This document shows, piece by piece, positions 1-21,974 of a DNA stretch of 22,359 nt. Position 1 is the first letter of the stretch; every line of letters starts with the position of its first letter. This DNA is from Geosiphon pyriformis uo1 (lineage: Eukaryota; Fungi; Glomeromycota). The position numbers and the translations under genes were made by a program. The DNA is taken from positions 1-22,359 of the forward strand of contig JAAOMT010000332.1 of NCBI GenBank assembly GCA_016748015.1, given 5' to 3'. Below the pieces are notes generated by a model. The model worked only from the letters and a program-made list of their open reading frames with translations. It was not told where the DNA came from and ran no database searches.

Positions 1-3
1 TCT

Positions 4-344
4 CCTAACCCTAACCCTAACCCTAACCCTAACCCTAACCCTAACCCTAACCCTAACCCTAACCCTAACCCTAACCCTAACCCTAACCCTAACCCTAACC
101 CTAACCCTAACCCTAACCCTAACCCTAACCCTAACCCTAACCCTAACCCTAACCCTAACCCTAACCCTAACCCTAACCCTAACCCTAACCCTAACCCTAA
201 CCCTAACCCTAACCCTAACCCTAACCCTAACCCTAACCCTAACCCTAACCCTAACCCTAACCCTAACCCTAACCCTAACCCTAACCCTAACCCTAACCCT
301 AACCCTAACCCTAACCCTAACCCTAACCCTAACCCTAACCCTAA
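4..344 (+). repeat. Canonical telomere (CCCTAA)n, i.e. TTAGGG on the other strand; left chromosome end
   Basis: 56 perfect CCCTAA units at 9-344 plus a partial unit, at the window start with the C-rich strand 5', as expected for a left end. Confidence 0.97.
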
Positions 345-848
345 CCCTATCCCTATCCCTAACCCTAACCCTATCCCTATCCCTATCCCTATCCCTATCC
401 CTATCCCTATCCCTATCCCTATCCCTATCCCTATCCCTATCCCTATCCCTATCCCTATAAATATCCCTATCCCTATAAATATCCCTATCCCTATCCCTAT
501 AAATATCCCTATCCCTATCCCTATCCCTATCCCTATAAATATCCCTATCCCTATCCCTATAAATATCCCTATAAATATCCCTATAAATATCCTTATCCTT
601 ATCCCTATCCCTATAAATATCCCTATCCCTATCCCTATAAATATCCCTATCCCTATCCCTATAAATATCTCTATCCCTATAAATATCCCTATCCCTATCC
701 CTATCTCTATCCCTATAAATATCTCTATCCCTATAAATATCCCTATCCCTATAAATATCCCTATCCCTATAAATATCCCTATCCCTATCCCTATAAATAT
801 CCCTATAAATATCCCTATAAATATCCCTATAAATATCCCTATCCCTAA
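345..848 (+). repeat. Telomere-variant repeat array (CCCTAT, AAATAT, rare CTCTAT/CCTTAT)
   Basis: Unbroken 6-bp register. 15 consecutive CCCTAT at 369-458, then CCCTAT interleaved with 19 AAATAT units. Ends with one canonical CCCTAA at 843-848. Confidence 0.93.
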
Positions 849-1728
849 TCACTTTCACAATATCAAACAAGAAACATCTAAAACTGTTATAACCTATCTT
901 AGAAAATTTAACAAACTTCTCAGACAAATCCAACAATTGGAAACCAATGACTACTATTCTAATGCTCAAATTCTGGATCAGTTTATAGCAGGGTTAAAAG
1001 ACAAACTGATTAAGAAAGTCTGTTCACATGCTCTAGCAGACTTAGCAACTGCTATTAGACATGCAAAGAGCTATAAAATGACAATGAAAGAAGCAAATCA
1101 CACCAAGCTTGTAAACCTTGCAATTGGAAAAACCAGCTTAGCAGCTGAAGAGAAAATAAACCAACTCACAAAAAAGGTTGAAAGCTACTTCACAAACTAA
1201 CAACAACAGCAACAACAACCACAAAGATATCAACTTCCACAACAATGCAACCAAAACAATTTTGGATCACCATCCAACAACCAATCTCAAAATTGTCATT
1301 ATTGTGGAATTCCAAGACACTGGAAACGAGATTGTAGGAAATTACAAAGAGACCAATAAAACAGAAGTAATCAATGTTATTTTTCACCACAACAATCTTA
1401 TTACCAATCTCTACCATCAACCTATTATTCACTAAGACCACAAAATCAAAACAGTTACTATCCACTAGCTCCACAATTAATGCAGCAACAATATTAGCAA
1501 CCTTTACCAATTCAGCCATATCAAATACCACCCACTCAACAATATCAAGTATCAGCAAGAAGATTGGTTTAACATAACCAATTCACACCCCAAAATCAAT
1601 TGCAGAGTAACAACAACAGAATCAATTCAAATAACCAGTTGGTTCCCCGAAATTCTGGTCAGCAAAGATCCAATCACTATCACACTCAATTCAGTTATCT
1701 TACAATACCAGAAAAATCGGATTTTTAA
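847..1728 (+). pseudogene. gag: gag of element A (capsid C-terminal half, Q/N-rich linker, CCHC zinc knuckle), N-terminus missing
   Basis: Frame 1: NHFHNIKQETSKTVITYLRKFNKLLRQI...ILDQFIAGLKDKL (capsid-like) and knuckle CHYCGIPRHWKRDC at 1294-1335. Internal stops present. Confidence 0.88.
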
Positions 1729-1899
1729 CAAACTGCACTTTCTGAAGATGAAGTTGCAGCACCAAAATCAAACCCTTTTAACTACACCATTTCATCAGCT
1801 CAAATTGCCCAAAATGCCAATTTGTCAGATATATTTCTATTTGAATTTAAAGCAAATGAATCACCATTTCTGCTTAGTAATGCAGCAGTTAATGAACAG

Positions 1900-2292
1900 A
1901 AAGCAATTACTGCTATGTACACAGAAGCTACAGTAGAAGGAAAACCCATTCGCTTAATCTTAGATAATAGATCGGCTGGAAGTATCATTACTTACTAGCT
2001 GATGCAACAACTCAAACAAAATATAGACAGACCAGCTCAAACAGTTATTGTCACAGCTGATAGTATAAAGAAGACTCCAGTAGAAGAAATTGATGATTTT
2101 TCCTTTACAATTGATGGAATCACTATTCCAGTTAAAATTCTTGTTATGGATGCACTCCAATACCAAGCTCTAGTCGGAAATGATTGGCTTCTCAAGGCCA
2201 ATACAAATCTGAACTGGAAAACTCAAGAACTTAAAATCTCATACCAAGGACAATATACTATAGTATCTGCAACCTGTGGTATCTTTAAAAAA
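1900..2292 (+). pseudogene. Aspartic protease (retropepsin) domain of element A
   Basis: Frame 1: VEGKPIRLILDNRSAGSII (decayed LDSGS active site) and ALVGNDWL flap-closing motif. Confidence 0.88.
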
Positions 2293-2337
2293 TGATCAGA
2301 AAAAGTTCCAGTATTTGAATTTGAAGAAGAGAAGAAA

Positions 2338-3160
2338 ATGCCACTCACTGAAACCTACATGGCTCTTGAATTACCATCTAATTGGGTTAAGGAAACAGAA
2401 CAAGAGATTTTCGAAGAATCAAGAGGATGGAAGAAAGTTAGATATTCCACACCAGAACCACAAAAAGAACCATCATACATTCTACTAAAATACAAAGATT
2501 GCAAAAAAAAGCTTTCATCTATGGAAGCCTGTATTTCCCCAGAAGAGGAATACAAAACTCGCACTTGCTACTTCTACAAGGCATGCCATAAAGAACAATT
2601 TAGATCCCCAAAGAGAAGTGGAAAATGGGACAAAACTCCTTGCCTTACTTGTGGAGAAAGGCTACCAGAAGAATGCAATTAGATTGATATAGCAATGAAA
2701 AGAGGAGTATGTAATCAAACCTGTCAATATGCTCTATCAATTTTGAAAAAAGTCAGAAAATGAACACCATTTGATGCAGCATACAACAGTGCTCTTAATA
2801 AACTTTACTACTATCCTCATGATGCTGAAATGATTTTTGACCTAGCAATAGCATTGATCAATAGAGCCACCCAAAAAGATATCTGCCAAATGAAAGAAAC
2901 TGAATACATTGAGTATACTATGGAATTAGCTAGATTTGATTATGAAGATGAAGTAGAAACCTACCACCAAATTGCAAGCCACATATACCCGACTTAAGAA
3001 GCTCAAATTCAACAATTAGAGCAAATGAACATTCAATTGTGTGAAGAATGCATCATGCTTTGTGATGACAAATGGTGTTCAAAATGCTATGTTCTTAGCA
3101 TTCCTCTGCCAGAGGAGAATGATGAAAATGAAATCGAATTTGGAGTATTTGAACTAGTAA
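2338..3160 (+). pseudogene. Cys-rich domain of unknown function in the element A polyprotein, between PR and dUTPase
   Basis: Same frame as PR. Clusters CYFYKAC, CLTC, CNQTC and CEEC-x3-C-x4-CSKC. Confidence 0.55.
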
Positions 3161-3206
3161 AAAACTACCAACCACCCCCATCTATCTCCTTGAAAAGCAA
3201 CTATCT

Positions 3207-3639
3207 CTACAATTTAAATATTTTGACAACTATAGCCAAGGAATCAGACCAAAAAAAGCACACAAAATTGATGCCAGATATAACCTAAGATACCCAGAAA
3301 AAAATACTTTAGTTCTCCAACCAAAGTCTTTGACAAAAATCAATCTCAAAATCACTCTTAAAATTCCACCTGGAGCAATAGTTCAAATTACCTCCAGATC
3401 ATCATTGGCAAGCAAAGGGATCAATATTAGAGGAGGAGGTATAGATACAGAATACACTGAAGACATTACCATCATGTTGTAAAATAAAACAGAAAAATCA
3501 TTTAAGATTGAACATGCTGAAAAAATTGCTCAAGCAATTTATCTACCCTTAATCAATATTTTGGGTCTACAATCAGTTAACAACAGAGAACAATTGGAAA
3601 AAAGTGAAATTGGAACTCAAGGTTTTTGGTTCAACTGGA
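3207..3639 (+). pseudogene. dut: Trimeric-type dUTPase domain of element A
   Basis: Frame 3, not in the ORF track. All five motifs are recognisable: DARYNL (I), SRSSLASKG (II), GGGIDTEYTEDI (III), EKIAQAI (IV), SEIGTQGF/GSTG (V, 1-nt insertion near 3627). Compensating frameshifts near 3160 and 3627 imply it was in the pol frame. Confidence 0.9.
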
Positions 3640-4149
3640 TGATTTACAGTTCCAGTAAACATAGTCCTTAAAATACAAAATGAATCTCACCAGATTCTTT
3701 AACTTCTATAACCAATTACCATTTCACCTTTTGGAGAACATCACGAAATTTACACTTGCTCAAAACCCACTACTACCCAACAAATCTTTGAATCCAATGA
3801 ACAAATCTGTTTAAAGCATGAAATTTCAATTCCAAACGTTTATATTCCCAAAGGAATGAAAAAATTTTGAGTTATATTCTACAATCCCAATAATTACCCT
3901 ATTGTTTTATTAAACAAATTAGAGATTGGAATCATACACATCAATATTTTTCAAGATAAAAACCCTCAAATTGTCTCTAATTTTATCAAAATTGTAAGAC
4001 ATACTCTACTCCCAAATCCAAATATCATTCCCATCACTGAAAACTATCATCTTTTAGAAGAAAAACTCTCTCGTATCAACATGGGTCCCTTAAAACCTCA
4101 ACAACAAAGACAATTAAAACAATTGATAACTGAATTTGCAGATATATTT

Positions 4150-5487
4150 GCAAAAGACAACAATGATCTGAGAAAAACAGATATGGTTTAACATCCGATC
4201 CATATAGAAGATGCTCCACCAAAATGTTAGCAAGCTTACAGAGTGCCACTTGCCAGCCACCAATTTATCAGAGAAGAAGTCCAGAAAATGCTCAATAACA
4301 AATTGATTCAACCATCAAGAAGTCCTTGGGCCTTACCAGTAGTCCTTGTTAAAAAAAAAAATAGAAAAATCAGATTTTGTGTTGACTATTGCCAATTGAA
4401 CAGTGTAACAATTGGAGATACCTACTCTCTTCCAAGAATTGATAACATGCTAAATGCTTTAGGAAAAACCAAGTTTTTCTCAACTTTAGACTTGGAAAGT
4501 GGATACTAGCAAGTCGAAATGAACCCAAAAGACTGATCCAAAACAGCATTCACCACTTAAGGAGGAAACTATGAGTTCAATGTTATGCCTTTTGAATTCT
4601 GCAATACACCAGCAACATTTCAGCGACTCATAGATGTTGTATATAAAGGGCTTTTGTGACAATTAGTAGTTGTTTATCTTAATGACACTGATGTATACTC
4701 ACCAAGCTTTGAAGCCCATCTCATTCACCTGCGAGAAGTTTTTCAATGATTACGGAAAGCAGGATTAAAGTTAAACATTAAAAAATGTCACTTTGGAAAA
4801 ACAAGCTTGATCTTTCTTGGACACATAGTTAGTAAAGATGAAGTCAAATCAAATCCAGGAACAATTAGTGCTGTCAAAAACTTTCAAACTCTCAGAAATA
4901 CCACAGAACTACAAGGATTTGTAGGATTAGTCTCTTACTATTGAAAATTCATAAAAGAAATCTCAGAAATTGCCAAACTACTCAATTATCTTACCAACAA
5001 AAACATGCTATACAAATAGACTGAAGAACAACAAAAAGCTTTTGAAACTCTCAAAACAAAATTAACAACAGCTCCAGTTCTTGCTTACTCAGACTTCAAC
5101 AAATGGTTCTAATTAGCCACTAATGCTTCACACATAGCATTTGGTGCCATCTTATCACAATTGGATGAAAATAGACAAGAACAAGTCATTGTCTATGCTA
5201 GTAAAACACTCAAACCAACAGAATTAAAATATGGCTCAACTGAATTAGAAGCTGCCACAGTTATCTGGGCTCTTAAACATTTTCAACAATATCTGAAGAA
5301 TGGAAAAGAATTTAACATCATAACTGACAATATTGGTCTCAAATGGCTCAATAAAAAAAAAATTGAACAAAGTGCCAAACAGTCTTGATGAAATGACTTC
5401 TTAGCAGACTACAAATATATTGTACACCACAAACCAGAAAAAATACACACTAATGTTAACAGCCTCTTAAGGATGAGACAATATTAA
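4150..5487 (+). pseudogene. pol: Reverse transcriptase and RNase H of element A
   Basis: Frame 1: PSRSPWALPVVLVKKK, RFCVDY, FSTLDLESGY*Q, VYLNDT (YLDD to YLND, 4675-4686), LATNASHIAFGAILSQ, YGSTELEA, IITDN, HTNVNSLLR, stop at 5485-5487. Confidence 0.95.
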
Positions 5488-5543
5488 TACTAACATCAAC
5501 ACCAACAAACTTAACAGCAGAACAAACAACAAAATTAATAACA

Positions 5544-6929
5544 ATAGATCCAGAAAACTACAACAACATCAAAAACTATTTGGAGACTTTCACCATGTCA
5601 GGAAATTAGTCCCCAAGTGAAAAACATTGATTACAACACCAATCCAAACAATATTTTATACACCACAACAAAATCTATTACAAAAATCGTAAAAACCCAA
5701 ACCAACCACTCAAATTAGTACAGGAAAATAAAAAAGAAACAATTTTATATAACATGCACACAGATCTATCTTCAGCACATTTGGGAAGAGATGGAACAAT
5801 TCAAAGAACTTTTGAACATTATTTTTGGCTTCACATGCAAAAAAACATTCAACAATATGTAGAATCTTGTAATAGTTGTCAAAAAAGAGAAGGAACTCAC
5901 CCCACAGAACCTTTAAATCCAATCAAAGTTGGACAACCATTTGACAGAGTTGAAATTGATTTAGTCGGACCATTACCTATCACAACCCAAGGAAATCGCT
6001 ATATTGTAGTAGCAGTAGATTATCTTACCAAATGGCCTAAAGTTAGAGCCATCCAAAGAGCAGATACAAAATCAGTAGCAAATTTCATCTATAAAGACAT
6101 TATTTGTAGACATGGATGTTCAATTGAACTCTTATCTGATCAAGGAACACATTTTGTAAACAACTTAATACAAGAAATTTGTGAACAATTCAATGTCAAA
6201 AGATCTCTATTATTGTCTTATCACCCTCAAATAAATGGATTTGTAGAATGGTTCAACAAAACATTGTGTGAATTATTGGCCAAAGTCTCAACAGATTTTG
6301 AGCAGGAATGGGATATCTTTATTCCATTAGTGTTACTAGCATACAGAACACTAAAACAAGATACTACGAAACACATACTATTTGACCTTACTTATGAAAA
6401 GACAGCAACATTACCAATTAATTTCACAGTAAAAACATATCCAGTGCAACCAATCAATGAAAAAAACTTTCAAAAAACACTTCAAAGAAGGGCCTACACT
6501 CTTCTCAGTACACTGGAAGGAAAAAGAAGGATACCAGCAACTCACATTGAACATTCTCAAGCTCAACAAAAAAAAAGACATAACAACAAATTACCACCCA
6601 TTATCAACGAATTTAAAGTTAGAAATAAAGTTTTCTTACACAGAACTAAGACTGAAAAACAATGGAGTGGAAAATTTGAAAACAAATGGGATGAACCATT
6701 TTATATTCACGAAATTCTAGGCAATAGATCATACAAGTTAAGACTTGATGATAAAATACTAGCAAAAGTTACACATAAAGACAAATTGAAACACTATTAT
6801 TCCAGAAACAATTCTAAAACATTAATTTCACAAATTGGTACACATTCTCCTTTAATAAATCCTGAAGATATTCCCCGAAATTTAGAACCAATAATTATAA
6901 TAAAACAACAACCAAACTTGAACACTTAA
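5544..6929 (+). pseudogene. Integrase of element A, in its own reading frame
   Basis: Frame 3: HHCC finger (HTDLSSAHLG...CNSC), IDLVGPLP, VDYLTKW, SDQGTHF, YHPQINGFVEWFNKTL, GPF-like KWDEPFYI. The N-terminus begins ATA-GAT-CCA (probable decayed ATG) at 5544. Confidence 0.93.
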
Positions 6930-7073: not shown

Positions 7074-7781
7074 ATGATTGTTCTCCAAAATATTCAACAA
7101 ATATTTCAAAAATTAATGTTAGTCTTGAAAACACTTCCTAACTTATCCATAACGATTAATGAAAGTCAAATTAATTACATTCAGAAAGAAACCACAGTCC
7201 CAATAGTAAATTATTTACAGAACTATCACTCCTACAGAAAAAAAACAAGAAGTCACTCTGAAAATAAGTTACCAAGACTTTTAAAGCAAGCACTAGAAGA
7301 AAATCTTTTAATTGCCCCTATTAACATTCCACCAAATACTACAATACAACAAAAACTTCTACTACTTCTCAATAAACAGAACAATAAACACACCCTTATC
7401 TATAAATACTTTCACATTGGAAAGACACTTTATGAACGAAAACTGGAACTTGAAACAACAAATCTCACTCTTGAAGCTATACAAAAACAAATTTATAATG
7501 AATTTAAAACAGCAGCTGGACTAACAAACACTCACTACAAACTTAAAGCAGCTTTTAGACTCTATAATTTGTTTAATACTTGTGAAAATGATCTACAAAA
7601 TTCAATACTGCAACCAATGAAAGTCCAATACATTGGCAAACTCACAGAACTGAAATTTTAACAATTTTCAGACCAGATTACTTCAATTATTTTGGATCAC
7701 TATCTTAATATCACAGATAATGCTTGGACTTTAATGGAGCTCAGTCTTAAGGAGAAGATTATGTTACCAGTAGAATTTTAG
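7074..7781 (+). pseudogene. Extra ORF of element A at the env position, unknown function
   Basis: 195-aa open frame 7074-7661, then TAA and a further 39 in-frame sense codons through the PPT into the LTR. Shares motifs with the ORF at 20621-21277. Confidence 0.7.
7749..7758 (+). other. Polypurine tract of element A
   Basis: AAGGAGAAGA, 3 nt before the LTR TG. Confidence 0.7.
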
Positions 7782-8730
7782 CTATTAATTAGCATGAAAT
7801 TACCTTTATAAATCCTATAATTAATTAGTATATTAATATCATTTCAAATTATCATTTATTATTTAATCAATTATCACATATTACGATTCAATTAAATAAT
7901 CCAATTAGTATAACAGAAAGTAGAATGATCAAATTACACAATACCCTGAACTTTGTAACATTCAAAACTTCGCCAAAATTTATAGAAATTCGCCAAAATT
8001 ATGAATAGTTTACCCAAATTAATCAATAGTTCAGCGAAATAACTTGTAATTCATCAAAATGTATTTTTAGTTTGCCAATATTTGAGCAAAGAGAAAAAGT
8101 GCAAGTTCATAGACTAGTACTACAACAAGTTATATAAAAGAAGAGCTTTTTTCTTTAAAGAAATATATCTTACTTTAGATTTATTACTTAGAATTATTCC
8201 TATACACACAAAAAGAAATTAATATTAAATAATTTGAAAAACCAAATTTTTTAATTATTGCACTTGAAAAATCCCTAAAACCCAACTAATGTTTTGAAAT
8301 TAATTAGCTACCAATTTCAGTAAACTGTTAGTAACTTCAGGCCTGAATAGAAAACGTTTCCCTTGACAGAATTCAATTTCTTTTATATTTCTTTTATTTT
8401 CTTTTATTTTCTTACTATAATTATTAGGGTAGCCTACAGACAAGATTCTTGTAAAAGAGTTGACTTTCACAGCAAAGTAACTACACATTTTTAGTAAGCT
8501 TCCAGACAAGCAATTTCTGAGAAAGAGTTGACATTCACTGCAACATAACTACATAAAGTAACTGGCACTGAATTGGCCATTCTATTTATAAGCCCACCAG
8601 TTCAAATTATAGGAGATAATTTGAAGATAAATTCAGTTATTGGAGGTTCAACTACTTCTAGAAAACGTGAATTTGCAACCAACAGACATTTACAACATTC
8701 AAGAAAAGAGACCAAAAACCTCTGGTAACA
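7762..8730 (+). repeat. 3' LTR of element A (969 bp)
   Basis: Perfect 9-bp terminal inverted repeat TGTTACCAG...CTGGTAACA. Preceded by the PPT, with a homologous decayed copy ending at 14193. Confidence 0.92.
8131..8139 (+). promoter_or_regulatory. Candidate TATA box of LTR A
   Basis: TATATAAAA about 370 bp into the LTR. The decayed copy has TGTATAAAA at the equivalent site. Confidence 0.45.
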
Positions 8731-9176
8731 CCACCAATGACTGTGAATGAACTAGAATTGGCTGCTTTAGAGATCAAGAAGTTGATAAAAGAAGCTTGGC
8801 TAAAATGTGTATTAACAGAAGCACCAGTATACAGGCCCAAGATTGTAACTGAAAGCTTGTCTTTAAATAAAAAATGAACAGAAATCAGCTGACCAGGAAT
8901 TTTGTTCACCTTTGAAACATGCTGAGCCAAAGAACTGTTCATAATAATGGCAACTCCAGAACCAAAAAAACCCACACCCAAACCAGAAATGAAAATCCGA
9001 ATTCCATCAAACTTATTTATAATCCAAGATCTAATATTAGATCTCAATTTGGTTTCTGTAACAATTAAAACCATATTTCCTAATTCCTTATGCCAACAAA
9101 CAATGTCTTCCTGCTTTGCAGGGACATTTATACCTCTATTATTACATGTAGCAAATTTCCAAACTAAATTACTCAT
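8731..9176 (-). pseudogene. LINE ORF2 N-terminus: apurinic-like endonuclease (EEP fold), truncated
   Basis: ATCNNRGIN (T-x-N-V-R-G), VTETKL, GSGVAII, ILGLYT, and TVIGG cut just before the expected DFN by the LTR. Confidence 0.9.
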
Positions 9177-11032
9177 TAAAAAGTAGGAGGAACAAACAAA
9201 TTCAAGTCAGAACACAAGTGATTTAATCTCTCTAAGACTGACTTAACTGACACTTCTAAAGCCACCATCTTGGATTTCAAACCTCCCACCTTGGTGGTTA
9301 AAATCTTAGAACTGTTAAGCTAATATCAGCAACCATATTAGTAACAATCACAGAAAGGGGAATAAAATGAATCAAAGCATTATTCAAAGTTATATCCAAA
9401 TCTATGTCTACTACCAAGGATGTAGAAGCTATAGGAGGAGAGACAAGAGGCAAAGATGCCAGAGGCACTAATTCAACATTGTTCAGCTTTCTCAAAATAT
9501 CAGAAACTTGGTCTGCCAAAAGCTCTAAAGAGCACTCCAAAGAAAATAAATGGTTATGTAAAGCAGAGTCATCAGGGAGAGCAGAGATCACTGAAGAAAT
9601 CCTAGCACCAGAAAACAAACTATTACCAAAAGACACCAAAGAAACCATGCAAGATGCAAAACTTTCAGAAGAAGAATTGAGTAACATGATCTGCATTTAC
9701 AACTTGCCACCAAAAGTGGCAGAATGGGAGATAGGGACAGTTTTCTTTGCATACAACTTGGCTAGCCAAAGACAATGTTCCACTGAGGTGACTTTTCTAA
9801 CAATTTTTGAAAACTTAGGAGTAAATGCAAGTGGTGCACCACATTTCAAAGCAGAATGACCAAGAAACTCACATCTTTCACAACAAACCAAATCCAGTCT
9901 AGTCCAAGAAAATTTGACACCACCAAATATCAGCTTAGTGCAATAAGCAGATTCTATTACATTCTCAAACTCGAAGCCAACTACAGCATAGCAAATTCTA
10001 TTGCCAGAATCCAATGAACAATTTATGATACAAGTTTTCCCACCAGCTTCTTTCAAAAAAGTGCTCAAATCATGAGCAGTTGTTTCTACAGACAAAGTAA
10101 ATAACAAAGCCCTGAATCAGTCTCTTGATGCCCATGTTTCACAATCTCTTACAGTTATAACCACTCACACAGAATTTTTTTCAATCAAAAAAGACCATTT
10201 AGCAGCCAATTGTACAGCCTGACCTATTTTAGCAAATTCCACCATAGCTTTTTGCCACAATCTAATAAGTTGGATTTTGATCGACTTAATTTTGCCAAAC
10301 TTAGCTAGAGCAGCGACAATCATTTTCTTTGGTGTGTCCATGGAAATTTTTTTGATGACCACAATCCGATTTGAGCAAATTTTTTGTTTTTTGAGATCAC
10401 TGTTAATGATGATTCTCTTCTCTCTGGTCAATGATATAGCTTTAATCAAGCTCTCATCATAAGTAAATGTAGATCAGATGATCCCTTCAAATTTTGAGGA
10501 AGTAGTGACTTCTCCAAAACCATTGACTAAAAAAAAAATTTTCTAATGAACTGAGTCTTTACTGTTACTGATTTCCCTTTCATAGCAGAAAAATTGATAT
10601 CTAAGGCAAAGAATTTTTGATGGGCACTTCAACTTGAGTTTTTACTACTTTAGGATCAATCCATCTTTTTTAAAGAGAAATATTGAGAGAAAAAAGGAAG
10701 TAAATCATGTTCTCATCTATTCCAAAATCAATAGTATCAATAGGAAAGCCACCGACCAAATCAATAATGACTTTCTTAGCTTTGGGAGTTGTTACAGCCA
10801 AATCGAGAAAAAAAGCACCACCTAAACTCAACTCAGTACTACCAAGCTTATTGTTACTGAACTCACTGTTCATATCCGAATATATGTCCTCATTGATATT
10901 AGGTTTGGTTAGAGAAATTTTTTTTTTATCACCAGAGTGTTTGATATTGCTAACAGAAATTTTTTTCTTCTGAGAAAAAGTTTCACCAACAGGACCATGA
11001 AAAGCACCTTTAGATGTCTTTTTCTTAAACAT
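9173..11032 (-). pseudogene. LINE ORF1 (gag-like nucleic-acid-binding protein), fragmented
   Basis: Consecutive minus-strand ORF pieces from MFKKKTSKGAFHGP (ATG at 11032). RRM-like segments (ALAKFGKIKSIKIQ...AMVEF), CERCEFLGHSALKC at 9882-9841 and coiled-coil-like C-terminus ending VPPTF-stop. Confidence 0.8.
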
Positions 11033-12416
11033 ATTGCTACTCAAAGCAGTCTCCAGATCTACCACAAATAGGTTATTAGCTTGAGAAATAGTAAAAGTAA
11101 TAAAACAAGCAGGATAAAAACAAAAAAACTTCTTTTTCAAAATTTGCTTTTTGGGAAATTAGGACAAAGAAGAGAAAAAAGTTTTTTAAATATGCTTTTT
11201 GTTGCAGTTTTTACACTTAAGTAAAATATAAAATAGTTGTTTCTGTAATTCTAATTTATAATACCAAACTTTATTTCAACTACTAATTTTTTTAAAAATT
11301 TTTTGTTTTGTTTTTTTAGTCCAATTAGATATTAATTCAAAAGTTATATAGGTTTTAGTAATTGGTATTTCTTTTTTTTTAAATTCGAACATAGAGGCTT
11401 TTTCTGATAATTTGTTAAAAGTACTACATATAACAAGTACTCTAATATATTGTTTTTGATATAAAATTTTAAGTTTTTGGGTTTTTTAATCTAAGTTTGT
11501 ATTGGTCTTGAAAAGCCAATTATTTTTAATAAATGTTTAATATTGAGATGTATTCATAATTAAAACTTTTATTAAAATGATAATTCCATTAATTGTGAAA
11601 AAAAAGTTATTAATTTTTTTTACTGCAATCTTCTTTATATTATTGGCTATTACAATTACTGTTTGGACTAATCTGTCCATATTTTAATTTAGTTGTTGTA
11701 TTAGTTAGTAGATAATAATACTTTTGGCAGATTTACTGTTTAAAATTAACCAAATTTGCTTTTCTTTAACTTTAGCTTTAATATTATTACTTATAAAAAT
11801 TAGGAGTATTGTATAGTTAAAAAATTTGCCAATCAAAAATAGACATAATAACAGAGAAATTTCAAGATTATTCTGAAGAAATTGCAGGATTCCAGAATTT
11901 TAGAATTCTAGAATTTTTCATAAAAATTACAGATTTTTCTGAAGAAATCACAAGATTCCAGAAATTTTATATAACACCAATTATGTATATATAGCAATAG
12001 TAAAAAAAAAAAAAAAAGACAGAATTCAGTTCAGTTTTAATTTAGCATTTTTTTTTATCTATTAATTAATCTTTACTTCACATATAGTTACTGTTAACCA
12101 AAATGAATTTATTAACCATATCAAATAAAACATACTTATTATCATTTAATCTATATTATTATTATTTAATTGAAAATTTTCATCACTTTTCTATTATTAA
12201 TACTTTATGTTAATAACATTCAACACTTAAACATGCTAAAACAATAGCTTTTGATCATGGCTATTAACAGGATATTAATTTTTTCTTTTCTTTTATTTAT
12301 TTATTCATTTTTATTTTGTTGTTTTGTTGCTTTACTAACTAATTAAAGAATTAATGCATAAAGTACTAACATCAAAAATAGCATTGATAAAAAACCCAAA
12401 AATAAGAGTAGATATT

Positions 12417-14193
12417 CGAAATTTGAAACAACAAATCTTATTCTTAAAGCTATACAAAAACAAATTTACAATAAATTTAAGACAACAATTGGATTAATAA
12501 ACACTTATTACAAACCTAAAGCAGTTTTTAAATTTTATAATCTATTTAATATTTTGTAAAAATGTTCTACAAAATTTAATATTTCAATCAATAAAGATTC
12601 AATATATTAACAAACTTACAAAACTAAAATTTTAACAATTTTCAGACCAAATTACTTGAATTATTTTGGACTATTATTTCAATATTACAGATAGTACTTG
12701 GACTTTAATAGAGCTCAGTTTTGAGAAAAAAATTATGTTATTAGTAGAATTTTAATCATTAAATTAACATAAAATTNNNNNNNNNNNNNNNNNNNNAAAA
12801 TGTATCTTTAATTTATCGAAATTATAGCAAAAAGAAAAATACAAGTTTATAGATTAGTATTACAACAAGTTGTATAAAAGAAAAACTTTTCTTTTTAAGA
12901 AAATGTATCTTATTTATAATAATCTTATCATAGATATCTTACTTGAGAATTATTTTTCTTAAAACAAGTCTCTTAGTACAAATCAAATAAAAACCAAATA
13001 CTTAAAAAATGCAAAAATTTATTAGTTAATATTTGAAATTCTAACTAATGTTTTAAAATTAATTAATAACTTTAGGTTTAAATAGAAAACAATTCCTTTA
13101 ACAAGATTTTATTTTTTTTATACTTCTATTATTTTTTTTTATTTTTTTTAATATAATTATTAAAATAGTTTANNNNNNNNNNNNNNNNNNNNTATTAACA
13201 AACTTACAAAACTAAAATTTTAACAATTTTCAGACCAAATTACTTGAATTATTTTGGACTATTATTTCAATATTACAGATAGTACTTGGACTTTAATAGA
13301 GCTTAGTTTTGAGAAAAAAATTATGTTATTAGTAGAAATTTTAATCATTAAATTAACATAAAATTACTCTTATAATTCTTATCATTAATTAATATATATT
13401 ATTATTGTTAAATTATTACTTATTATTTAATCAAATTATTAAATATTACTATAATTTAATTTGTATAATAAAAATAAAATGATCAAATTACACAATATTT
13501 TGAATTATGTAACATTTAAAAATTTGCCAAAATTTGCAGAAATTTACCAAAATAATAAATAGTTTACTTTTTAGTTAATAGTTTGCAGAAATAACTTGTA
13601 NNNNNNNNNNNNNNNNNNNNAAAAGAAAAACTTTTCTTTTTAAGAAAATGTATCTTATTTATAATAATCTTATCATAGATATCTTACTTGAGAATTATTT
13701 TTCTTAGAACAAGTCTCTTAGTACAAATCAAATAAAAACCAAATACTTAAAAAATGCAAAAATTTATTAGTTAATATTTGAAATTCTAACTAATGTTTTA
13801 AAATTAATTAATAACTTTAGGTTTAAATAGAAAACAATTTCTTTAACAAAATTTTATTTCTTTTATACTTCTATTATTTTTTTTATTTTTTTTATATAAT
13901 TATTAAAATAGTTTACAAACAAAATTCTTGTAAAAAAGTTAATTTTTATAGCAAAGTAATTACACATTTTTAATAAGCTTTCAGATAAGTAATTTCTAAA
14001 AAAAAGTTGATTTTTATTATAAAGTAATTGGCATAAAATCAGCTATTCTACTTATAAATCCAGTATTTTAAATTATAGAAGATAATTTAAAAATAAATTC
14101 AGTTATCAGAGATTTAACAGTTTTCAAAAATGTGAATTTATAATAAACAGACATTAACAACATTTAAAAAAAAGACCAAAAACCTTAGTAACA
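12417..14193 (+). mobile_element. Heavily AT-mutated relic of the element A family 3' end (extra-ORF tail, PPT, LTR), partly duplicated around gaps
   Basis: 12421 onward aligns by eye with 7449 onward (TTGAAACAACAAATCT...GCTATACAAAAACAAATTTA). LTR starts TGTTA at 12736 and again at 13324, and ends AGACCAAAAACCTTAGTAACA at 14193. Confidence 0.9.
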
Positions 14194-14513: not shown

Positions 14514-15015
14514 CTCTTAGCTGTAGAAAAGCATGAAAAAATTAAAGAAATAAAAGAAATAAAATAACAATTTCATCTCAATTTTTCTCTTATTGCTAAT
14601 TTTTCTTTTCCTATTTTCAAGTATCTAAACATCTTAAAGATAAAAAATTATTTGTTGGTTATTCCTTACCCTTTTTCTAAAATGTGTAATTGCAGCATTT
14701 GAAGATTATTGAATAAAACGTTACTAAAAAGCACATCTGATACTTGATATTGAATTTTAAGAGTGCTAACGTGAGGCATAAAATTATACCAAGTGTAATC
14801 ATTTGTTGACAGTATGGACTATCTTTCTATCTTCAGATTTCTTAGTTACCTTTGAAAAATATAGCAACTGAGATATTTTATGAGACTAATCTTGCATATT
14901 GAATCTATACTCATTCAATTCGCTCTTTGAAGTTGAATTTCCTTTGATTATTTCCATCACCCTACAATTCTGTTCTCCCTTGCTATCCATTAGCTTGTTA
15001 CTCCAACTCGTAACA
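14514..15015 (+). repeat. 5' LTR of element B (first ~226 bp not visible, presumably in the gap)
   Basis: Aligns without indels to 21473-21974 (offset 6959) and ends GTAACA. Confidence 0.95.
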
Positions 15016-15021
15016 TAAAAG

Positions 15022-15038
15022 TGGTGCTCCCTATAAGG
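15022..15038 (+). other. Primer binding site of element B
   Basis: TGGTGCTCCCTATAAGG, 6 nt after the LTR. TGG is complementary to tRNA CCA. The sequence resembles the complement of a tRNA-Ile(UAU) or tRNA-Thr 3' end, identity not confirmed. Confidence 0.7.
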
Positions 15039-15067
15039 TTATCAAAATTCACTTTGTTTCCTATTGT

Positions 15068-16520
15068 ATGGGGGATTATTTATATCTGCCACAACAATTA
15101 GAAGAACACTTTGAAGCACACAACAAAAACAATCTAGACTTTATTAAACTCAATCTTTTGCCCTCCTGCTTGATTTGCTTCCCCATTGAAAAACAATCCA
15201 GCAGACAATTCTAAGACTTTTGGAACTGGTTCCTGAATGAGCATTCAGCTGAAACCTACACAGCTTATACAACCTATTACTTTGACCAAGCTTATTTTGA
15301 AGACAACTGTAAAGAAAGAAACAACAGCATTAATCAACTTTTATACTCAACAATCTTTGAACAACAGCCTTCTGATTTTGAATATTTGAATCATCAAATC
15401 CACATTTAGATTGCTGCTCATCAATCAACAGAAACTCCTCTTGAAACAGAAGAAGAAAGCTATTAAACCACTCCTGTTTTTGATCTCTTTTCAAGTAAAT
15501 CAGAACACTCCACACAAACAGTTACACCTGAACCAATGGCTCAAAACCCTCTACAACAAAACATTCTGATCGCCTTTCAAGGTATACAGACTGCTTTAGG
15601 GCAAAAAAACAACACCCTATTATCATTATTCAGAGGTGATGCCCAAGATCCAATCGAATGACTGGATGATTTTGAGAGAGCTGCCACAGCAAACCAATAT
15701 AATAATGAATACAAGTTTCAAATCGTTGGTGGCTACCTTCAAGGCTCTCCTGCTACTTGGTTCTTACAAAAAACCAATCTTAATCTCAAATTGGCATATG
15801 GAATTAGAAAGAAGAACTCAAGGCCCTGGTGAGGTTGTAACAAAATATGCCAAAGCAATAAAAAAACTTATTAAATGGGTAGACTCTAGAAGAAATTGAA
15901 CAGAAGAGCAGAAAATACATTCCTTTACAAAAGAACTGAGAACTGATCTATTATATGCTCTTTGGCCCCTCCTGGTCTTGAAAGATAATCTCACAATGGA
16001 TATGGTCATTGAACTTGCTCAGAAAATAAAAAACAATCAAAGGATGCATCTAGGATCCACACTTCCAGTTTTTGCTTCTGCTTTTGTTATGGCTTCTGCT
16101 CCCCAAATGGCTGCTACCTTTTTTGCTGTCCAAACTCAAGACCCAAATAAACAGTTAATAGATAGACTTACAGCTAATCTTGTCTGGCTATTAAAACCAT
16201 TGGTCCAAGCAGTCAGAGACAACCAGCAACCCCAAAGACCTAGATTTGAATCCTGCTTCAATCAGCCCCAGCAACCACCATATTAAAAACAACAAAATTG
16301 TGGCCCACCTATGTACTATTACTGTGGACTAACTGGACACTTTTTCAAAGACTGTAACAATCCTCCATTGCCTCCTCCAGCTCCCAAAAATAATAACACC
16401 CAGAATAACAGATCCAACAATAATAATGTTCTCAATCAAAAACCCAATTATCCCAACATCAATTTCTTTGGAGAGGATCCCTTAGTTGAAGCTACTGTTT
16501 ATCAGCCTTTAAACTGGTAG
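15068..16520 (+). pseudogene. gag: gag of element B (N-terminal extension, capsid, zinc knuckle)
   Basis: FRGDAQDPIE*LDDFERAATAN, GYLQGSPATWF, frame break near 15780, RTQGPGEVVTKYA, decayed knuckle YYYCGLTGHFFKDC (16314-16355), stop TAG at 16518-16520. Confidence 0.88.
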
Positions 16521-16557
16521 GCACATCTTCAAAGGGTAAGAGTACAAGCCAACCAGA
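16508..16557 (+). promoter_or_regulatory. Candidate -1 programmed ribosomal frameshift site (T TTA AAC plus downstream hairpin)
   Basis: Heptamer at 16508-16514 is phased X XXY YYZ in the gag frame, one codon (TGG) before the gag stop. The -1 frame is open through the protease. Confidence 0.75.
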
Positions 16558-19198
16558 AAAAAATTTCTTTTATGCTTTTAACCTAACTAATAATGATTAT
16601 AACATGGATGAATTAGCAATTAACACTTCTGAATCAACCAGAAAAAAAAAGAAAGCCAAAGTTGATTTTGTTCTAGATCCAAAAAAAGCCTCCACATCAA
16701 CTGTTGATAACAATGAGCTGCTAAAGGCTAAAGTTTTTAAAAATTCCCCAAAGTTGGAACTTCTAGAAATAGTACAAAAATCTGGCCCCTATTCTGTTGT
16801 TAAAGATCTCATGAAAACCCTTGCACACATTACATTTGGCCAATTGATGACCCATCTACAGTTCAGAAAAAATCTTTACAAATCATTGATACCAAAGAAA
16901 AAAACACCAAAGACCAACAAATGCCCTTACCAAGTTGGATTTGCTAATAACAGCAATGTCACTCCTCTGATTTGTAAAGCCCAAGTGGCTGGTTACTTCA
17001 TTGATCTGATCCTAGACAGTAGATTATCTGTTAGTGTAATTGCCAAACATTTTCTTGAAGCAATTGGCAAAAAAATTGATGAGCCTTCCACAAGACCAAT
17101 GACCAATATATATGGTGACAAGAAGAAAGGTCTGGACATAACCAAAGCTATTTCTGTCCACATTAATGGTATCAGTATTGAAACTAATATAAAAGTGTCT
17201 AAAGCAAAAGAGTACACCATCATTGTTAGTAATGAATGGCTTAAGAAAACCAAAGCACTACTTGACTATGAACTTTGTGAGCTAACTATCAGATGTGGTG
17301 AGAAACCCATTGTAGTTAAATGCCAACATTAAACAACTCTTCCAGTAACCCAACAGAACAAAGAAAAAAAACAATCAGATGAATCAGATAATAATGAAAG
17401 CAATAATAATAAAGATCAAAAAAAACAAGAAGAAACTGCTGAACTTGTCTACACTATCTTCACTAGCAATGGCAAGCCACTGGACAATGTTAAAGTTGAC
17501 AAAGAAGGAATCATGGTGAATGGCAAAATGATTTGCTGGCCCTACTATGATATTTTCAGAAGAATCTTTGACAGAAAACCTAGTAAAAAAGCCAAATACA
17601 GTTATTAGTAGCATGGCCCTTGTGCACAATGCTAGTGTAATAAATCTTTGTATTCACCAAGTGATGAATGCAAATTCTGTCTGATCTATTACAAAAATTG
17701 GGAACCAATTAGTTTGATACCTCGAGAAGAACTCAAAGAAGTACAAAAGTCTTTTGAGAATAAACCATCTGAAATCCAATCATTGGTTTTAGAACAAAGA
17801 AAACCTTCCCCTAAAGAAAAAAAAGTGGACATTAAAAATCTGTTGGCTAGAAATAGCCCAGTTATCTCAAAAGAAGGTGACATCCCTGAACAAACTTATG
17901 TGATACAACACACCATCACCACTAAAAAAACTCACCCTATTTATTTGAAGCTTTATCAATCCAATTGACACAATGATGAGTTTATTAAGAAAGAGATAAA
18001 CTGGATAAAAGATCTTGGATTCATACAAAAAACCAAAAATAAATGGGCTTTTTCAGTTGTAGTAGTATCCAAGAGAGGTGGAACTTTATGCTTCTGTGTT
18101 GACTACTGCCAATTAAATGCCATCACTATAAGAGACATATACCCATTTCTCAAGATTAATGCAATGCTAGATAAATTTAATGGTGCTGTATTTTTCTCAA
18201 CCATTAACTTAACTGCTGAATTCTGGCAAGTAGAGATGGATTCAGAAAGCAGAAAAAAAACTGCCTTTATCACCAAGTATGGCATCTATGAATTCACAAT
18301 CATGCTTTTTGGTTTCACCAATGCTCCTCTTATCTTTTAATGCTTAATGAATAAAGTGTTTGAATCAGTAAAAAAAAACTTTGTTCTGGTTTACTTGGAC
18401 GACATAATGGTATATTCAAAAACCTGGGATAAACACCTTAAACATTTACAGAAGGGTTTTAACCTCCTTAGAAATGCTGGCCTTAAGATCAACCCAATCA
18501 AATCTTTTTTTGAACACCAATCCACCCAATTTCTTGGTCATCTTGTTACAAAAGATGGAATCTTTCCTGACCCAGCTAAAGTTGAAAAAGTTCAGAACAT
18601 TAGACAACCAATAAATGTTTCTGAACTATGTTCTTTCCTTGGTTTGGTCTCTTATTATCGCAAATTCATCAAGGATTTCTTCAAAATTGTCTTTTCTTAC
18701 AATTAGCTACTTAGAAAAAATGTCAATTATCACTGGAATACTCATCAACAAAAAACTTTTGAATTTCTGAAGGAAAAACTTGTTACTAAACCAATTCTCA
18801 AACAACCTAATCTGAATCAACTTTTTATCCTTCACACTGATGCATCTGGCTATAGACTTGGTGATGTTTTTTCACAAAAAGATGAAAATGGCAGAGAACA
18901 TGTCATAGCATATGCCAATAGATCTCTCACACCAGCTGAAAAGAACTATTCAGTTACTGAACAAGAATGTTCAGCAATAGTTTGGGCTACTAATTACTAG
19001 GACTAATATTTTCTTGGTGCAAAATTCTTAGTAGTAACAGATCATCAAGCCTTGGTTTGGCTGTACAAGAAAAAGAAGCTGGAACACAAACAAATAACTT
19101 ACTAGATACTCCACTTGGATGAATTCGACTATGATATTCAACACCACAAAGGAGCAAATCATCAAAATGCTAATGTTCTCTCTAGACTTACTATCTAG
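16514..19198 (+). pseudogene. pol: pol of element B: protease, spacer with Cys cluster, RT, RNase H (no dUTPase)
   Basis: Frame 2: LILDSRLSVSVI, IIVSNEWL, FCVDYCQLN, VYLDDIMVYS (18392-18403), LHTDASG, YSVTEQEC, VVTDHQAL, NANVLSR, stop at 19196-19198. Confidence 0.95.
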
Positions 19199-19265
19199 TG
19201 ACAGTACAACCTTTTAAACCAAACCAACTTAATTATTAGTAACTTCTTCACAAACAAACACAATA

Positions 19266-20579
19266 ATAGACTTGAACAACTACTCTGCTTTAATGAAATT
19301 TTTGGGTAAAAGACAATACCCACCAGAATACACTTAACAGTAAAGAGAACATTTGTGCAAACAATCAAATTTCTATTTGATCCGCTAGAACCAATTATAC
19401 AAAAAAAACAGAAAAAATCTTGACTGCCCCCAGAGAGTTATCAAATTTGAAGAAAAAGAAATTGTAATATACAACATGTATACTGACCCATTAGCTAGAC
19501 ACTTTGGAAAAACAAAAACAATTCAGAAAACTTTAGCTTGTTATTATTGGCCTACTTTGAAAAAAGACATTGCTGAATACATTAAAACCTGTGACATCTG
19601 CCAAAAAAAAGGCAAACCTAATCACAAAGAAGATATCCATTCAATCTTTGTTGGTCAACCATTTAACAGAATTGGTATAGATATTGTTGGACCTTTAACA
19701 ATCACTCCTGATGGCAACAGATATATTATCATAGCTACTGACTATCTTACAAAGTAGATAGAAGCAAGAGCCACACCAAACCAAACAGCAGTCTCAATAG
19801 CTAATTTTATTTATGAAGATATTATCTGCCATCATGACTGTCCCAAAAAACTTTTATCTAATAGAGGAAGAGCTTTTTTCAGTACACTGGTTGAAGAACT
19901 TTGTAGAAAAATAAGAATATGTCATAAACTTTCCTCCTCTTATCATCTTTAAACAAATAGCCTAGTGAAACGTTTCAATAGAACACTATGTGAAACCCTA
20001 GCCAAAACCAGTAAAGAAACAAACTTATGAGACAAAGTACTGCCTTTAGCTTTGTTTGCTTATAAAACTGTAAATCATAACATAACAAGTTATGAACCTT
20101 TTTATCTGCTCTATGAATGCATGGCAATGCTACTAATAGAAACTAATATTGAAACAATATCTTTTGAAGAAATCACAATAGAGAATTACAAAAACATTTT
20201 GCAAAGAAGACTTGGTACCATTCTTGACTTCTTGGTAGAAACATGAATAATTGCTTTTAAAAAGATAAAACAGTTTTAAAAAAAGCTTAAAAAAAAGAAA
20301 ACCTATAAAACACTTTCTTTAAGTGTTGATAACTTAGTACTAGAATACCATTCAAATAGAAACAATATTTATGGTGATAAATTTTCTAGCCAGTAGAAAG
20401 AACTTTTTATAGTCAACAAAGTTTTGAACAATAATTCTTATATTCTTCAAGATCAATTCAAAACAATCTTTAATAATTATTCTGTTCATGGTACACAATT
20501 CAAGAAATATCATAAACGACCTGATTGGCTACCTGTTGTGGTAATATCAACTCAAATGATCAGCAAAAATCAAGTATAA
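19266..20579 (+). pseudogene. Integrase of element B, in its own reading frame
   Basis: Frame 3 from ATA-GAC (probable decayed ATG): RHFG...CDIC, IGIDIVGPL, TDYLTK*, SNRGRAF, VKRFNRTL, ending WLPVVVI...stop at 20577-20579. Confidence 0.92.
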
Positions 20580-20620
20580 ATAAATGTACCATTCCTAAAA
20601 CAGAGGTATTTTCAATCAAT

Positions 20621-21277
20621 ATAAACAATTATTTTCTGGATCAAAACATTCAAAACACTTTCTATACTCTTTATGAGTATTGAATCAAAAACTATCCAAA
20701 TGCTACTCTGACCATTGGAAAACAAACCACCATAACTAATAACAGTAGAACACATACTGTTATTAGACCAAAGAAAATCACTACCAGAAGAGAAAGAATT
20801 GGTAGTAAAATGAATAAATATCTGTTAAAAAGTATAACAGCAGCTATACTCCTACCTTCCAACACAATTGAAAAAACACTACAAGAAATCTTATCTATAG
20901 ACAAAAACTTGTCATATGAAAGGCAATTAGAACTTTATGGTCATCTTGGTAAAATTATAAAGGATATGAAACTCATAAAGAAAACAACTTCAGAGATACA
21001 GGCAGAAATTTTGGGCATTATACGATTATATATTCCAAGAGTTTTAACTATTGCTAGAAAAGCCAAAACTCTAATACAAAGATTTGGTCTCTTGAATACA
21101 AAACTCATTTTGTCTCAAGTATTATATACCTTATCCACAAAAGACTTCAACAAATTAGTTAGCTTTGAGTTAGATAAAACCCTTCTAATAGATTACACTA
21201 TAAATAGCTTGATTTTGCCAGAGCTTAATCTTTTTGGAGAAGATGATATTACAGTTAAAACTTATACTTTTTATTAA
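20621..21277 (+). pseudogene. Extra ORF of element B at the env position, unknown function
   Basis: Frame 2 with one internal stop (20681). The 155-aa ORF 20810-21277 is its 3' part and runs through the PPT into the LTR. Confidence 0.7.
21236..21246 (+). other. Polypurine tract of element B
   Basis: GGAGAAGATGA abutting the LTR start. The context GAGCTyArTCTT..GGAGAAGAT is shared with element A. Confidence 0.7.
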
Positions 21278-21974
21278 TTATCACATGTATTAGCCACTCT
21301 ATTTTTAGTAAGTGATCATTGACCTGATCAATAATCTGATCATTGATCTGATCATTGACCTAATTATTGACCTGATTAATGACCTAATTATTGACTTAAT
21401 TATTGACCTGATTATTAACCTAGTCATTGACCTAATCATTGACTACTTTTGACAGCTATATAAGCAATGAATTTCTTAGCTATAGAAAAGCATGAAAGAA
21501 TTAAAGAAATAAAAGAAATAAAATAACAACTTCATCTCAATCTTTCTCTTATCACTAATTTCTCTTTTTCTACTTTCAAGTATCTGAACATCTTAAAGAT
21601 AAAAGATTATTTGTTGGTTATTCTTTACCTTTTTCCTGAAATGTGTAATTGCAGCATTTGAAGATTATTAAATAAAACATGACTGAAGAGCACATTTGAT
21701 ACTTGATATTGAATTTTAAGAGTGCTGATGTGAGGCATAGAATTATACCAAGTGTAATCATTTGTTGACAGTACAGACTATCCCTCTACCTTCAGATTCC
21801 TTAGTTACCTTTGAAAAGTATAGTGACTAAGATATTTCATAAGACTAATCTTGTACATTGAATCCATACTCATTTAATTCACTCTTTAAAGTTGAATTCT
21901 CTTTGATTATTTCTATTACTCTACAATTCTGTTCTCCTTTACTATCCATTAGCTTGTTACTCTAACCTGTAACA
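21247..21974 (+). repeat. 3' LTR of element B (728 bp)
   Basis: Ends TATTACAG (decayed TGTTACAG)...CTGTAACA. The last 502 bp match the 5' LTR. Confidence 0.93.
21313..21444 (+). repeat. 11 x 12-bp tandem array (consensus TGATCATTGACC) in U3 of LTR B
   Basis: Exact 12-bp period, ending 12 bp upstream of TATATAA (21457-21463). Confidence 0.9.

What the first reader, a model, noticed from the sequence alone, without database searches (positions are those of the whole stretch)
7074..7781. Conserved extra gene at the env position that is not an envelope protein
Seen: both elements have a ~220-235 codon sense ORF after IN, with colinear similarity. A VLQNIQQIFQKLMLVLKTLPNLSITI matches B LDQNIQNTFYTLYEY*IKNYPNATLTI; A KYFHIGK matches B LYGHLGK; A VQYIGKLTELKF matches B SQVLYTLSTKDF; A MELSL matches B PELNL. 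Both frames extend across the PPT into the LTR (in A after one internal TAA). Neither shows an obvious signal peptide or transmembrane run, and both look helical and basic. A's copy keeps 195 open codons in AT-rich DNA. Inference: a lineage-defining accessory protein (nucleic-acid binding, anti-silencing, IN partner or movement factor). Together with the split integrase, this gives a gag / pol / IN / ORF-X retroelement architecture that I do not recognise as described.
Basis: partly seen in the sequence, partly recalled or inferred. Interest (0 to 1): 0.8.

Follow-up and report, generated by a model that had tools for sequence, protein, structure and literature searches.

The report
Fungal retrotransposon's non-envelope extra gene
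A family of fungal jumping genes carries a conserved extra gene in the slot where retroviruses keep their envelope gene, but its product has no membrane anchor and matched no known protein family, and it likely acts in the nucleus as a helper for the element's own expression.

Summary
ORF-X (7074-7781) is a real 235-codon gene between integrase and the 3' LTR of a decayed Ty3/gypsy element. Its 120 best relatives are all Geosiphon pyriformis proteins. Two full-length metagenome relatives are 27-28% identical. One lies in a near-intact element with the same layout: RT-RNase H, stop, separate integrase, ORF-X, PPT, LTR. Unselected evolution to that distance always left at least 6 stops, against 0-1 observed, so the frame is maintained.

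It is not Env: no transmembrane run, a helical model, and no Pfam or fold match.

'Basic' is partly mutational decay. gag and pol read in one frame in element A.

Most likely it is a nuclear, nucleic-acid-binding regulator of its own element (inferred, about 0.4). An integrase adaptor is the main rival. Non-env extra ORFs are a known kind. This family and the split-integrase layout were not found in ten literature searches, but this scan has noted split-integrase gypsy elements and third genes on other DNA.

The parts
7074..7781 (+). ORF-X of element A, 235 codons, one decay stop (TAA 7659-7661); last codons overlap the PPT and LTR start
850..5487 (+). Decayed gag-pol of element A in one frame (gag tail, protease, dUTPase, RT, RNase H), cut at its 5' end by the telomere; ends in TAA five codons after the RNase H LSR-type motif
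   Evidence: Pfam; frames; junction
5544..6929 (+). Integrase of element A as a separate ORF in another frame (start read as ATA; H2C2, rve, SH3_Tf2-1; no chromodomain hit)
   Evidence: a Geosiphon gene model begins at the matching place (P0048)
7749..7758 (+). Polypurine tract of A, inside ORF-X
7762..8730 (+). 3' LTR of A; TG...CA with a 9-base inverted repeat at its ends
12420..14193 (+). Second, more decayed A-family copy: 3' part of ORF-X plus LTR, broken by assembly gaps
   Evidence: similarity ends at the LTR end
14514..15015 (+). 5' LTR of element B (start lost in an N gap), followed by a TGG-type primer-binding-like site at 15022
15068..19198 (+). Decayed gag-pol of element B (frame changes within gag, likely decay), stop three codons after LSR
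19266..20579 (+). Integrase of element B as a separate ORF in another frame
20621..21277 (+). ORF-X-like gene of element B, 218 codons, start read as ATA, one decay stop; probable distant relative of A's ORF-X
21247..21974 (+). 3' LTR of B, preceded by its PPT (21236-21246)

Best explanation
ORF-X is a conserved extra gene of a lineage of Ty3/gypsy retrotransposons that encode integrase separately, and its predicted soluble, helical product likely enters the nucleus and likely binds the element's own DNA or RNA to promote its expression or export. Shown: gene limits, position, conservation, a maintained reading frame, no membrane segment, no family match. Inferred: it has its own start codon 41-316 bases after the integrase stop, so it would need its own transcript or reinitiation (no RNA data). 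A conserved Pro-Tyr plus basic stretch in a predicted flexible linker would act as the nuclear import signal. The conserved G/K-T-N-x-R-x-R...A-x-R-L-Y-x-x-F helix pair in the core would be the binding surface. It would play the part that Rev/Tat-like accessory factors, Cer1 CERV or Grande GENE23 play elsewhere, without being shown to be related to them. The copies in this window are dead.
For: Real gene. Layout repeated in L001 and partly in L002/L003. Gene models join ORF-X to integrase-tail motifs in 12 of 120, 26 of 120 and 15 of 43 hits (crude motif test). Selection: 600 of 600 neutral simulations left 6 or more stops, against 1 in A and 0 in L001; 32 columns are conserved in at least 5 of 6 lineages that are 18-64% identical. 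Soluble helical model: pLDDT 76.6 overall, 81-94 over residues 81-200, low-confidence linker at 42-51. P53/Y54 are conserved in 5 of 6 lineages. A [HK][PSL]Y-basic-basic motif is in 19 of 22 full-length A copies, and a basic patch at the matching place is in 20 of 21 B copies. Segments 41-80 and/or 121-160 are net positive even in the acidic metagenome relatives. The resemblance to a nuclear localisation signal is recalled, not tested. Analogies: PMC7264820 (nuclear aORF proteins, accessory-factor proposal) and PMC10309623 (CERV).
Against: There is no direct functional evidence. The two metagenome relatives are net acidic (pI 5.4, 5.9). No fold or sequence match to any nucleic-acid-binding family passed threshold. 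TATA-like boxes upstream in B, L001 and L002 are near chance (shuffle rates 0.14-0.45) and are absent in A. dN/dS (0.78/2.08) can be mimicked by transition bias alone, so it is not independent support. Subfamily-fixed changes are not clearly more conservative than private ones (P 0.09). A-B homology is unproven.
Confidence: 0.42

Rival explanations
1. ORF-X is an integrase partner: an adaptor that brings the separately made integrase into the particle or nucleus, or tethers it to target chromatin in place of a chromodomain.
For: It follows a split integrase in 3 of 3 elements where both junctions could be read (A, B, L001). Integrase not fused to Gag-Pol needs another route into the particle (inference). 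No chromodomain hit. A short integrase tail motif (IGxHxPL...EPIV-type) recurs in A, L002 and partly L001.
Against: Three elements cannot show coupling, and no split-integrase elements without ORF-X were sampled. L002 has another ORF between integrase and ORF-X.
Confidence: 0.25
2. ORF-X is a host-interacting or structural factor, for example a silencing suppressor acting on proteins, a particle component, or a factor for moving between nuclei of the coenocytic hypha.
For: It diverges faster than integrase (28% vs 55% identity between A and L001), as host-facing accessory proteins often do (PMC13547354, passages). It has a long C-terminal helix that could oligomerise.
Against: No match to viral movement, capsid or suppressor folds in BFVD or PDB. 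The conserved motifs look more like an import signal and a basic helix (inference).
Confidence: 0.2
3. A's and B's ORFs are unrelated genes that fill the same slot. This question is separate from function.
For:: several profile and pairwise tests at shuffle level. The shared C-terminal ELxL-E motif is fixed by the PPT DNA.
Against:: colinear full-length alignment, strongest through the intact relative P0267 with the PPT tail removed. Same slot, similar length, and integrase distances rank the same way (A-L001 61%, A-B 47%).
Confidence: 0.28
4. ORF-X is an Env-like fusion or membrane protein.
For: Position and orientation only.
Against: No transmembrane run or hydrophobic leader, median 0-2 cysteines; compact helical model; no match to Env or fusion folds or Pfam families.
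Confidence: 0.03
5. The frame is a chance or passenger ORF in AT-rich spacer DNA.
For: dN/dS and substitution-type tests are not decisive by themselves.
Against: 0 of 10000 shuffles; open frames at 22-36% identity across lineages; 600 of 600 neutral runs gain stops.
Confidence: 0.02

Closest known systems
Ty3/gypsy (Metaviridae) LTR retrotransposons, including fungal ones with dUTPase between protease and RT (PMC6431247, passage)
   Same: LTRs, PPT, primer-site-like motif, order PR-RT-RH-IN. Ty3 RT is the best PDB sequence match of L001's RT-RH (E 6e-47). dUTPase lies between PR and RT in A.
   Different: Integrase is its own ORF after a stop, and a further gene follows it.
Sense additional ORFs between pol and the 3' LTR (aORF-3S, 'env-like', e.g. 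Athila, Bagy2; PMC7264820, parts 1-2 of 3 read)
   Same: Same slot and strand; kept across copies and lineages.
   Different: No transmembrane segment, no Pfam similarity, fungal host, and it overlaps the PPT and LTR start.
Nuclear accessory proteins of LTR elements: Cer1 CERV (PMC10309623, abstract), Grande GENE23 and Boty antisense ORF (as reviewed in PMC7264820)
   Same: Small non-Env accessory gene; nuclear function proposed here by analogy.
   Different: No sequence relation shown (not compared directly). CERV comes from a spliced RNA, and the Grande and Boty ORFs are antisense.
Retroviral and errantiviral env
   Same: Position only.
   Different: Lacks signal peptide, transmembrane anchor and cysteine-rich ectodomain.

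Membership tests
Ty3/gypsy (Metaviridae) | Domain order PR-RT-RH-IN | tested here: met
Ty3/gypsy (Metaviridae) | LTRs with TG...CA ends, PPT, primer-binding site | tested here: met
   (B's LTR start reads TA, likely decay; primer tRNA not identified)
Ty3/gypsy (Metaviridae) | RT related to Ty3 | tested here: met
   on relative L001; no tree built
Ty3/gypsy, canonical layout | Integrase translated as part of Pol | tested here: not met
   Stop 3-5 codons after the LSR-type motif in 3 of 3 elements, integrase restarting 24-67 bases later. In L001 the restart is in the same frame, so readthrough is not excluded there.
Chromovirus | Chromodomain at the integrase C-terminus | tested here: not met
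   No chromodomain hit at E<=0.1 in A's integrase or L001's C-terminal part
Env / env-like ORF | Sense ORF between pol and 3' LTR | tested here: met
Env / env-like ORF | Signal peptide and transmembrane anchor | tested here: not met
   Hydropathy scan only, no dedicated predictor
Env / env-like ORF | Fusion-protein fold or Env family profile | tested here: inconclusive
   No significant match; absence from these lists does not exclude a family
Env / env-like ORF | Expression from a spliced RNA | not testable with these tools
   No RNA run was available to lay on the stretch
Rev/CERV-like or anti-silencing accessory factor (works-like claim) | Nuclear location and binding to element RNA or DNA | not testable with these tools
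   Motif-level inference only
Helix-turn-helix DNA-binding proteins | HTH fold | tested here: inconclusive
   Best Z 4.5, none at 5 or above among 48161 chains

The most novel reading that the evidence does not exclude
An undescribed clade of fungal Ty3/gypsy elements has a three-gene plan (gag-pol / integrase / ORF-X) in which integrase is made apart from Pol. ORF-X, a protein with no recognised family or fold, would be the dedicated factor that delivers or targets integrase, or that switches the element on, making it a 'complex' retrotransposon analogous to complex retroviruses.
Probability: 0.3. Interest if true: 0.8.

Novelty: new variant of a known kind. Interest (0 to 1): 0.56.

Why it matters
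Non-Env accessory genes of LTR retrotransposons are poorly understood, and few fungal ones are described. This family has hundreds of copies that sit in public databases as Geosiphon 'hypothetical proteins', so recognising it removes false host genes from a genome reported to have a strong LTR expansion (PMC11952901, passage). Its pairing with a separately encoded integrase raises a testable question: how does integrase reach the particle or the cDNA when it is not part of Pol? A near-intact natural relative (L001) and a confident core model give starting points.

Tried and rejected
No whole genome is held for the window, so copy number and linkage could not be counted on DNA.

Public RNA runs: none was listed; no reads were laid.

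ESM Atlas: no answer obtained for the window ORF or four stored homologues.

Integrase plus ORF-X complex prediction: no verdict, the pair was not folded.

Viral contigs: 4 scans, no relative confirmed.

The better model gave no Foldseek match at E<=0.001 in PDB or BFVD and a best VIA Z of 4.5. Its weak rows include ParB/Spo0J, SigF, Orc6 and the CHD1 C-terminal domain at Z 3.2-4.0, within noise and not used. The PDB sequence hit to FtsQ (E 0.03) was treated as chance. Pfam: nothing near a curated cut-off for ORF-X members.

Statistics dropped: the RNase H and duplicate-copy rows, because they were out of frame; dN/dS as independent evidence; the TATA-box signal; and the C-terminal ELSLEEEIMLP motif as protein evidence, because it is the PPT and LTR start.

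My first idea that 12420-14193 is a segmental duplication was dropped, because similarity stops at the LTR end.

I recall similar ORFs after integrase in Rhizophagus elements. No call recovered one, so this remains an untested lead.

Full report
SETTING. The window starts with a (CCCTAA)n telomere and holds two decayed Ty3/gypsy elements. Element A runs from a telomere-cut gag (850) through protease, dUTPase, RT and RNase H in one frame to a stop at 5485-5487. Integrase follows in another frame (5544-6929), then ORF-X (7074-7781), a PPT and a 969-base LTR (7762-8730) whose ends form a 9-base inverted repeat. Element B (14514-21974) has the same plan without a dUTPase hit. Its LTRs agree at 446 of 498 aligned bases, and 51 of the 52 differences are transitions. 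All 120 listed relatives of each ORF are Geosiphon pyriformis hypothetical proteins (165 and 130 hits in all), so the host is likely this fungus or a close relative.

OBSERVATION. The coordinates are exact. Intact-length A relatives are 235 or 239 aa and B relatives 218 aa. An open run of 195 codons arose in 0 of 10000 shuffles of either region. Both frames cross the PPT into the LTR, but in different phase relative to the LTR start. A further Geosiphon subfamily (P0270 type) ends without the PPT-coded motif (inferred from protein only), so the overlap is not universal. There is no transmembrane run and there are few cysteines. 'Basic' is partly an artefact: copies decay E>K 63 times against K>E 15, and the two metagenome relatives have pI 5.4 and 5.9, with local basic patches only.

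THE FAMILY. A profile of 49 A sequences run on 1.84 billion representatives gave 36 hits. Of 9 looked up, 7 are Geosiphon and 2 are unnamed metagenome proteins of 230 and 234 aa. The Geosiphon hits include two further subfamilies at 19-27% identity to A. A second search with a 12-sequence alignment gave 47 hits, 46 Geosiphon plus P0267; only the 7998 candidates sharing most words were scored. The metagenome scan returned 3 loci from 261 pattern matches. L001 shows RT-RH, a stop, integrase with its own ATG 24 bases later in the same frame (one internal stop), 316 bases of spacer, an intact ORF-X, PPT and LTR. L002 shows an integrase tail, another 128-codon ORF, then ORF-X. L003 shows the ORF-X tail and an LTR. 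The stop after RNase H lies 3-5 codons past the LSR-type motif in 3 of 3 elements, so the split integrase is unlikely to be decay.

SELECTION. A and L001 share 28% of ORF-X residues against 55% of integrase residues; dN/dS is 0.78/2.08 against 0.33/1.39. Strong transition bias alone can give such ratios, but 600 of 600 neutral simulations at comparable distances left 6 or more stops, against 1 and 0 observed (substitutions only, no indels). Thirty-two columns are conserved in at least 5 of 6 lineages. A test of subfamily-fixed against private changes was not significant (P 0.09). The maintained frame is therefore the firm evidence.

A VERSUS B. For: z about 7 for the window pair; E 0.004; median 6.0 bits under one B-free profile with 3 of 630 shuffles reaching it; hhalign E 0.009; and median z 4.1 through P0267 without the PPT tail, with 11 of 21 pairs above all shuffles. 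Against: median z 1.6 over 32 pairs; profile cross-scores at shuffle level; hhalign probabilities of 0.2 and 4.5%; and 0-1 of 21 for the five other A-side lineages. With shared slot, length and motif order I put homology at about 0.7.

STRUCTURE. The model of P0267 on 12 sequences (pLDDT 76.6, pTM 0.63) has an N-terminal helix and beta hairpin, a flexible linker, a helical core (81-200, pLDDT 81-94) and a long final helix. No Foldseek match reached E 0.001. The best VIA Z was 4.5 among 48161 chains, which neither names the fold nor shows it is new. Pfam and PDB sequence searches gave nothing credible.

MECHANISM. Shown: a separately started, soluble-looking, maintained gene. Inferred: nuclear import through the conserved PY-basic linker (the signal type is recalled) and nucleic-acid binding through the conserved TN-x-R-x-R...RLY helix, giving a regulator of the element's transcription, silencing or RNA export (0.42). 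Rivals: integrase adaptor or tether (0.25), host-facing or structural factor (0.2), Env-like (0.03), chance (0.02). How ORF-X is expressed is unknown; upstream TATA-like boxes are near chance.

LITERATURE. Ten full-text searches listed no paper describing this ORF or a gypsy integrase in its own ORF. Seen: PMC7264820 (parts 1-2 of 3: main text), PMC10309623 (abstract and outline), and passages of PMC11952901, 10.1101/2021.03.30.436303, PMC3248453, PMC6431247, PMC5911963, PMC4427930 and PMC13547354. In PMC6431247, PMC5911963 and PMC4427930, 'separate ORF' did not refer to integrase. No supplements were read. Repbase and subscription papers, including the Geosiphon genome paper (recalled), did not come up in these searches and could hold a description. 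Earlier notes of this scan report split-integrase gypsy elements and third genes in other genomes. Two protein look-ups and one look-alike look-up found no stretch like this one. These notes are leads, not support.

VERDICT. A real, conserved, uncharacterised non-Env accessory gene in a Ty3/gypsy lineage with a split integrase. It is a new variant of a known kind, and its function is inferred only. Interest 0.56.

Noticed in passing
window 1-849: Telomeric (CCCTAA)n grading into CCCTAT and CCCTATAAATAT variant repeats and joining directly onto the middle of element A's gag, as if the chromosome end was healed inside the element.
   Followed up: partly
window 5449-5600, 19161-19300; L001 736-830: Integrase is a separate ORF in all three elements, restarting 24-67 bases after the RNase H stop, in the same frame in L001 and in other frames in A and B.
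   Followed up: yes
window 3153-3482: dUTPase between protease and RT in element A (Pfam E 2.6e-06); no such hit among the B pieces scanned.
   Followed up: partly
L002 425-811: A second extra ORF (128 codons) between integrase and ORF-X, with no Pfam hit and no match in the window or L001; some elements may carry two accessory genes.
   Followed up: partly
window 8731-11160, minus strand: Fragment of another element, LINE-like by recalled motifs, with a weak RRM hit (E 0.006); A's LTR abuts it, so A likely inserted into it.
   Followed up: no
window 11194-11778, minus strand: Decayed inverted copy (71%) of A's protease region 1925-2512.
   Followed up: no
window 14515-15015 vs 21474-21974: 51 of 52 LTR differences are transitions and CpG is depleted (observed/expected 0.08-0.17), pointing to methylation-linked or RIP-like decay.
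   Followed up: partly
window 21277-21460: A degenerate 12-base tandem repeat near the start of B's 3' LTR.
   Followed up: no
P0001-P0316: Many Geosiphon 'hypothetical proteins' are gene-model chimeras of ORF-X with integrase, protease, gag or LINE pieces.
   Followed up: partly
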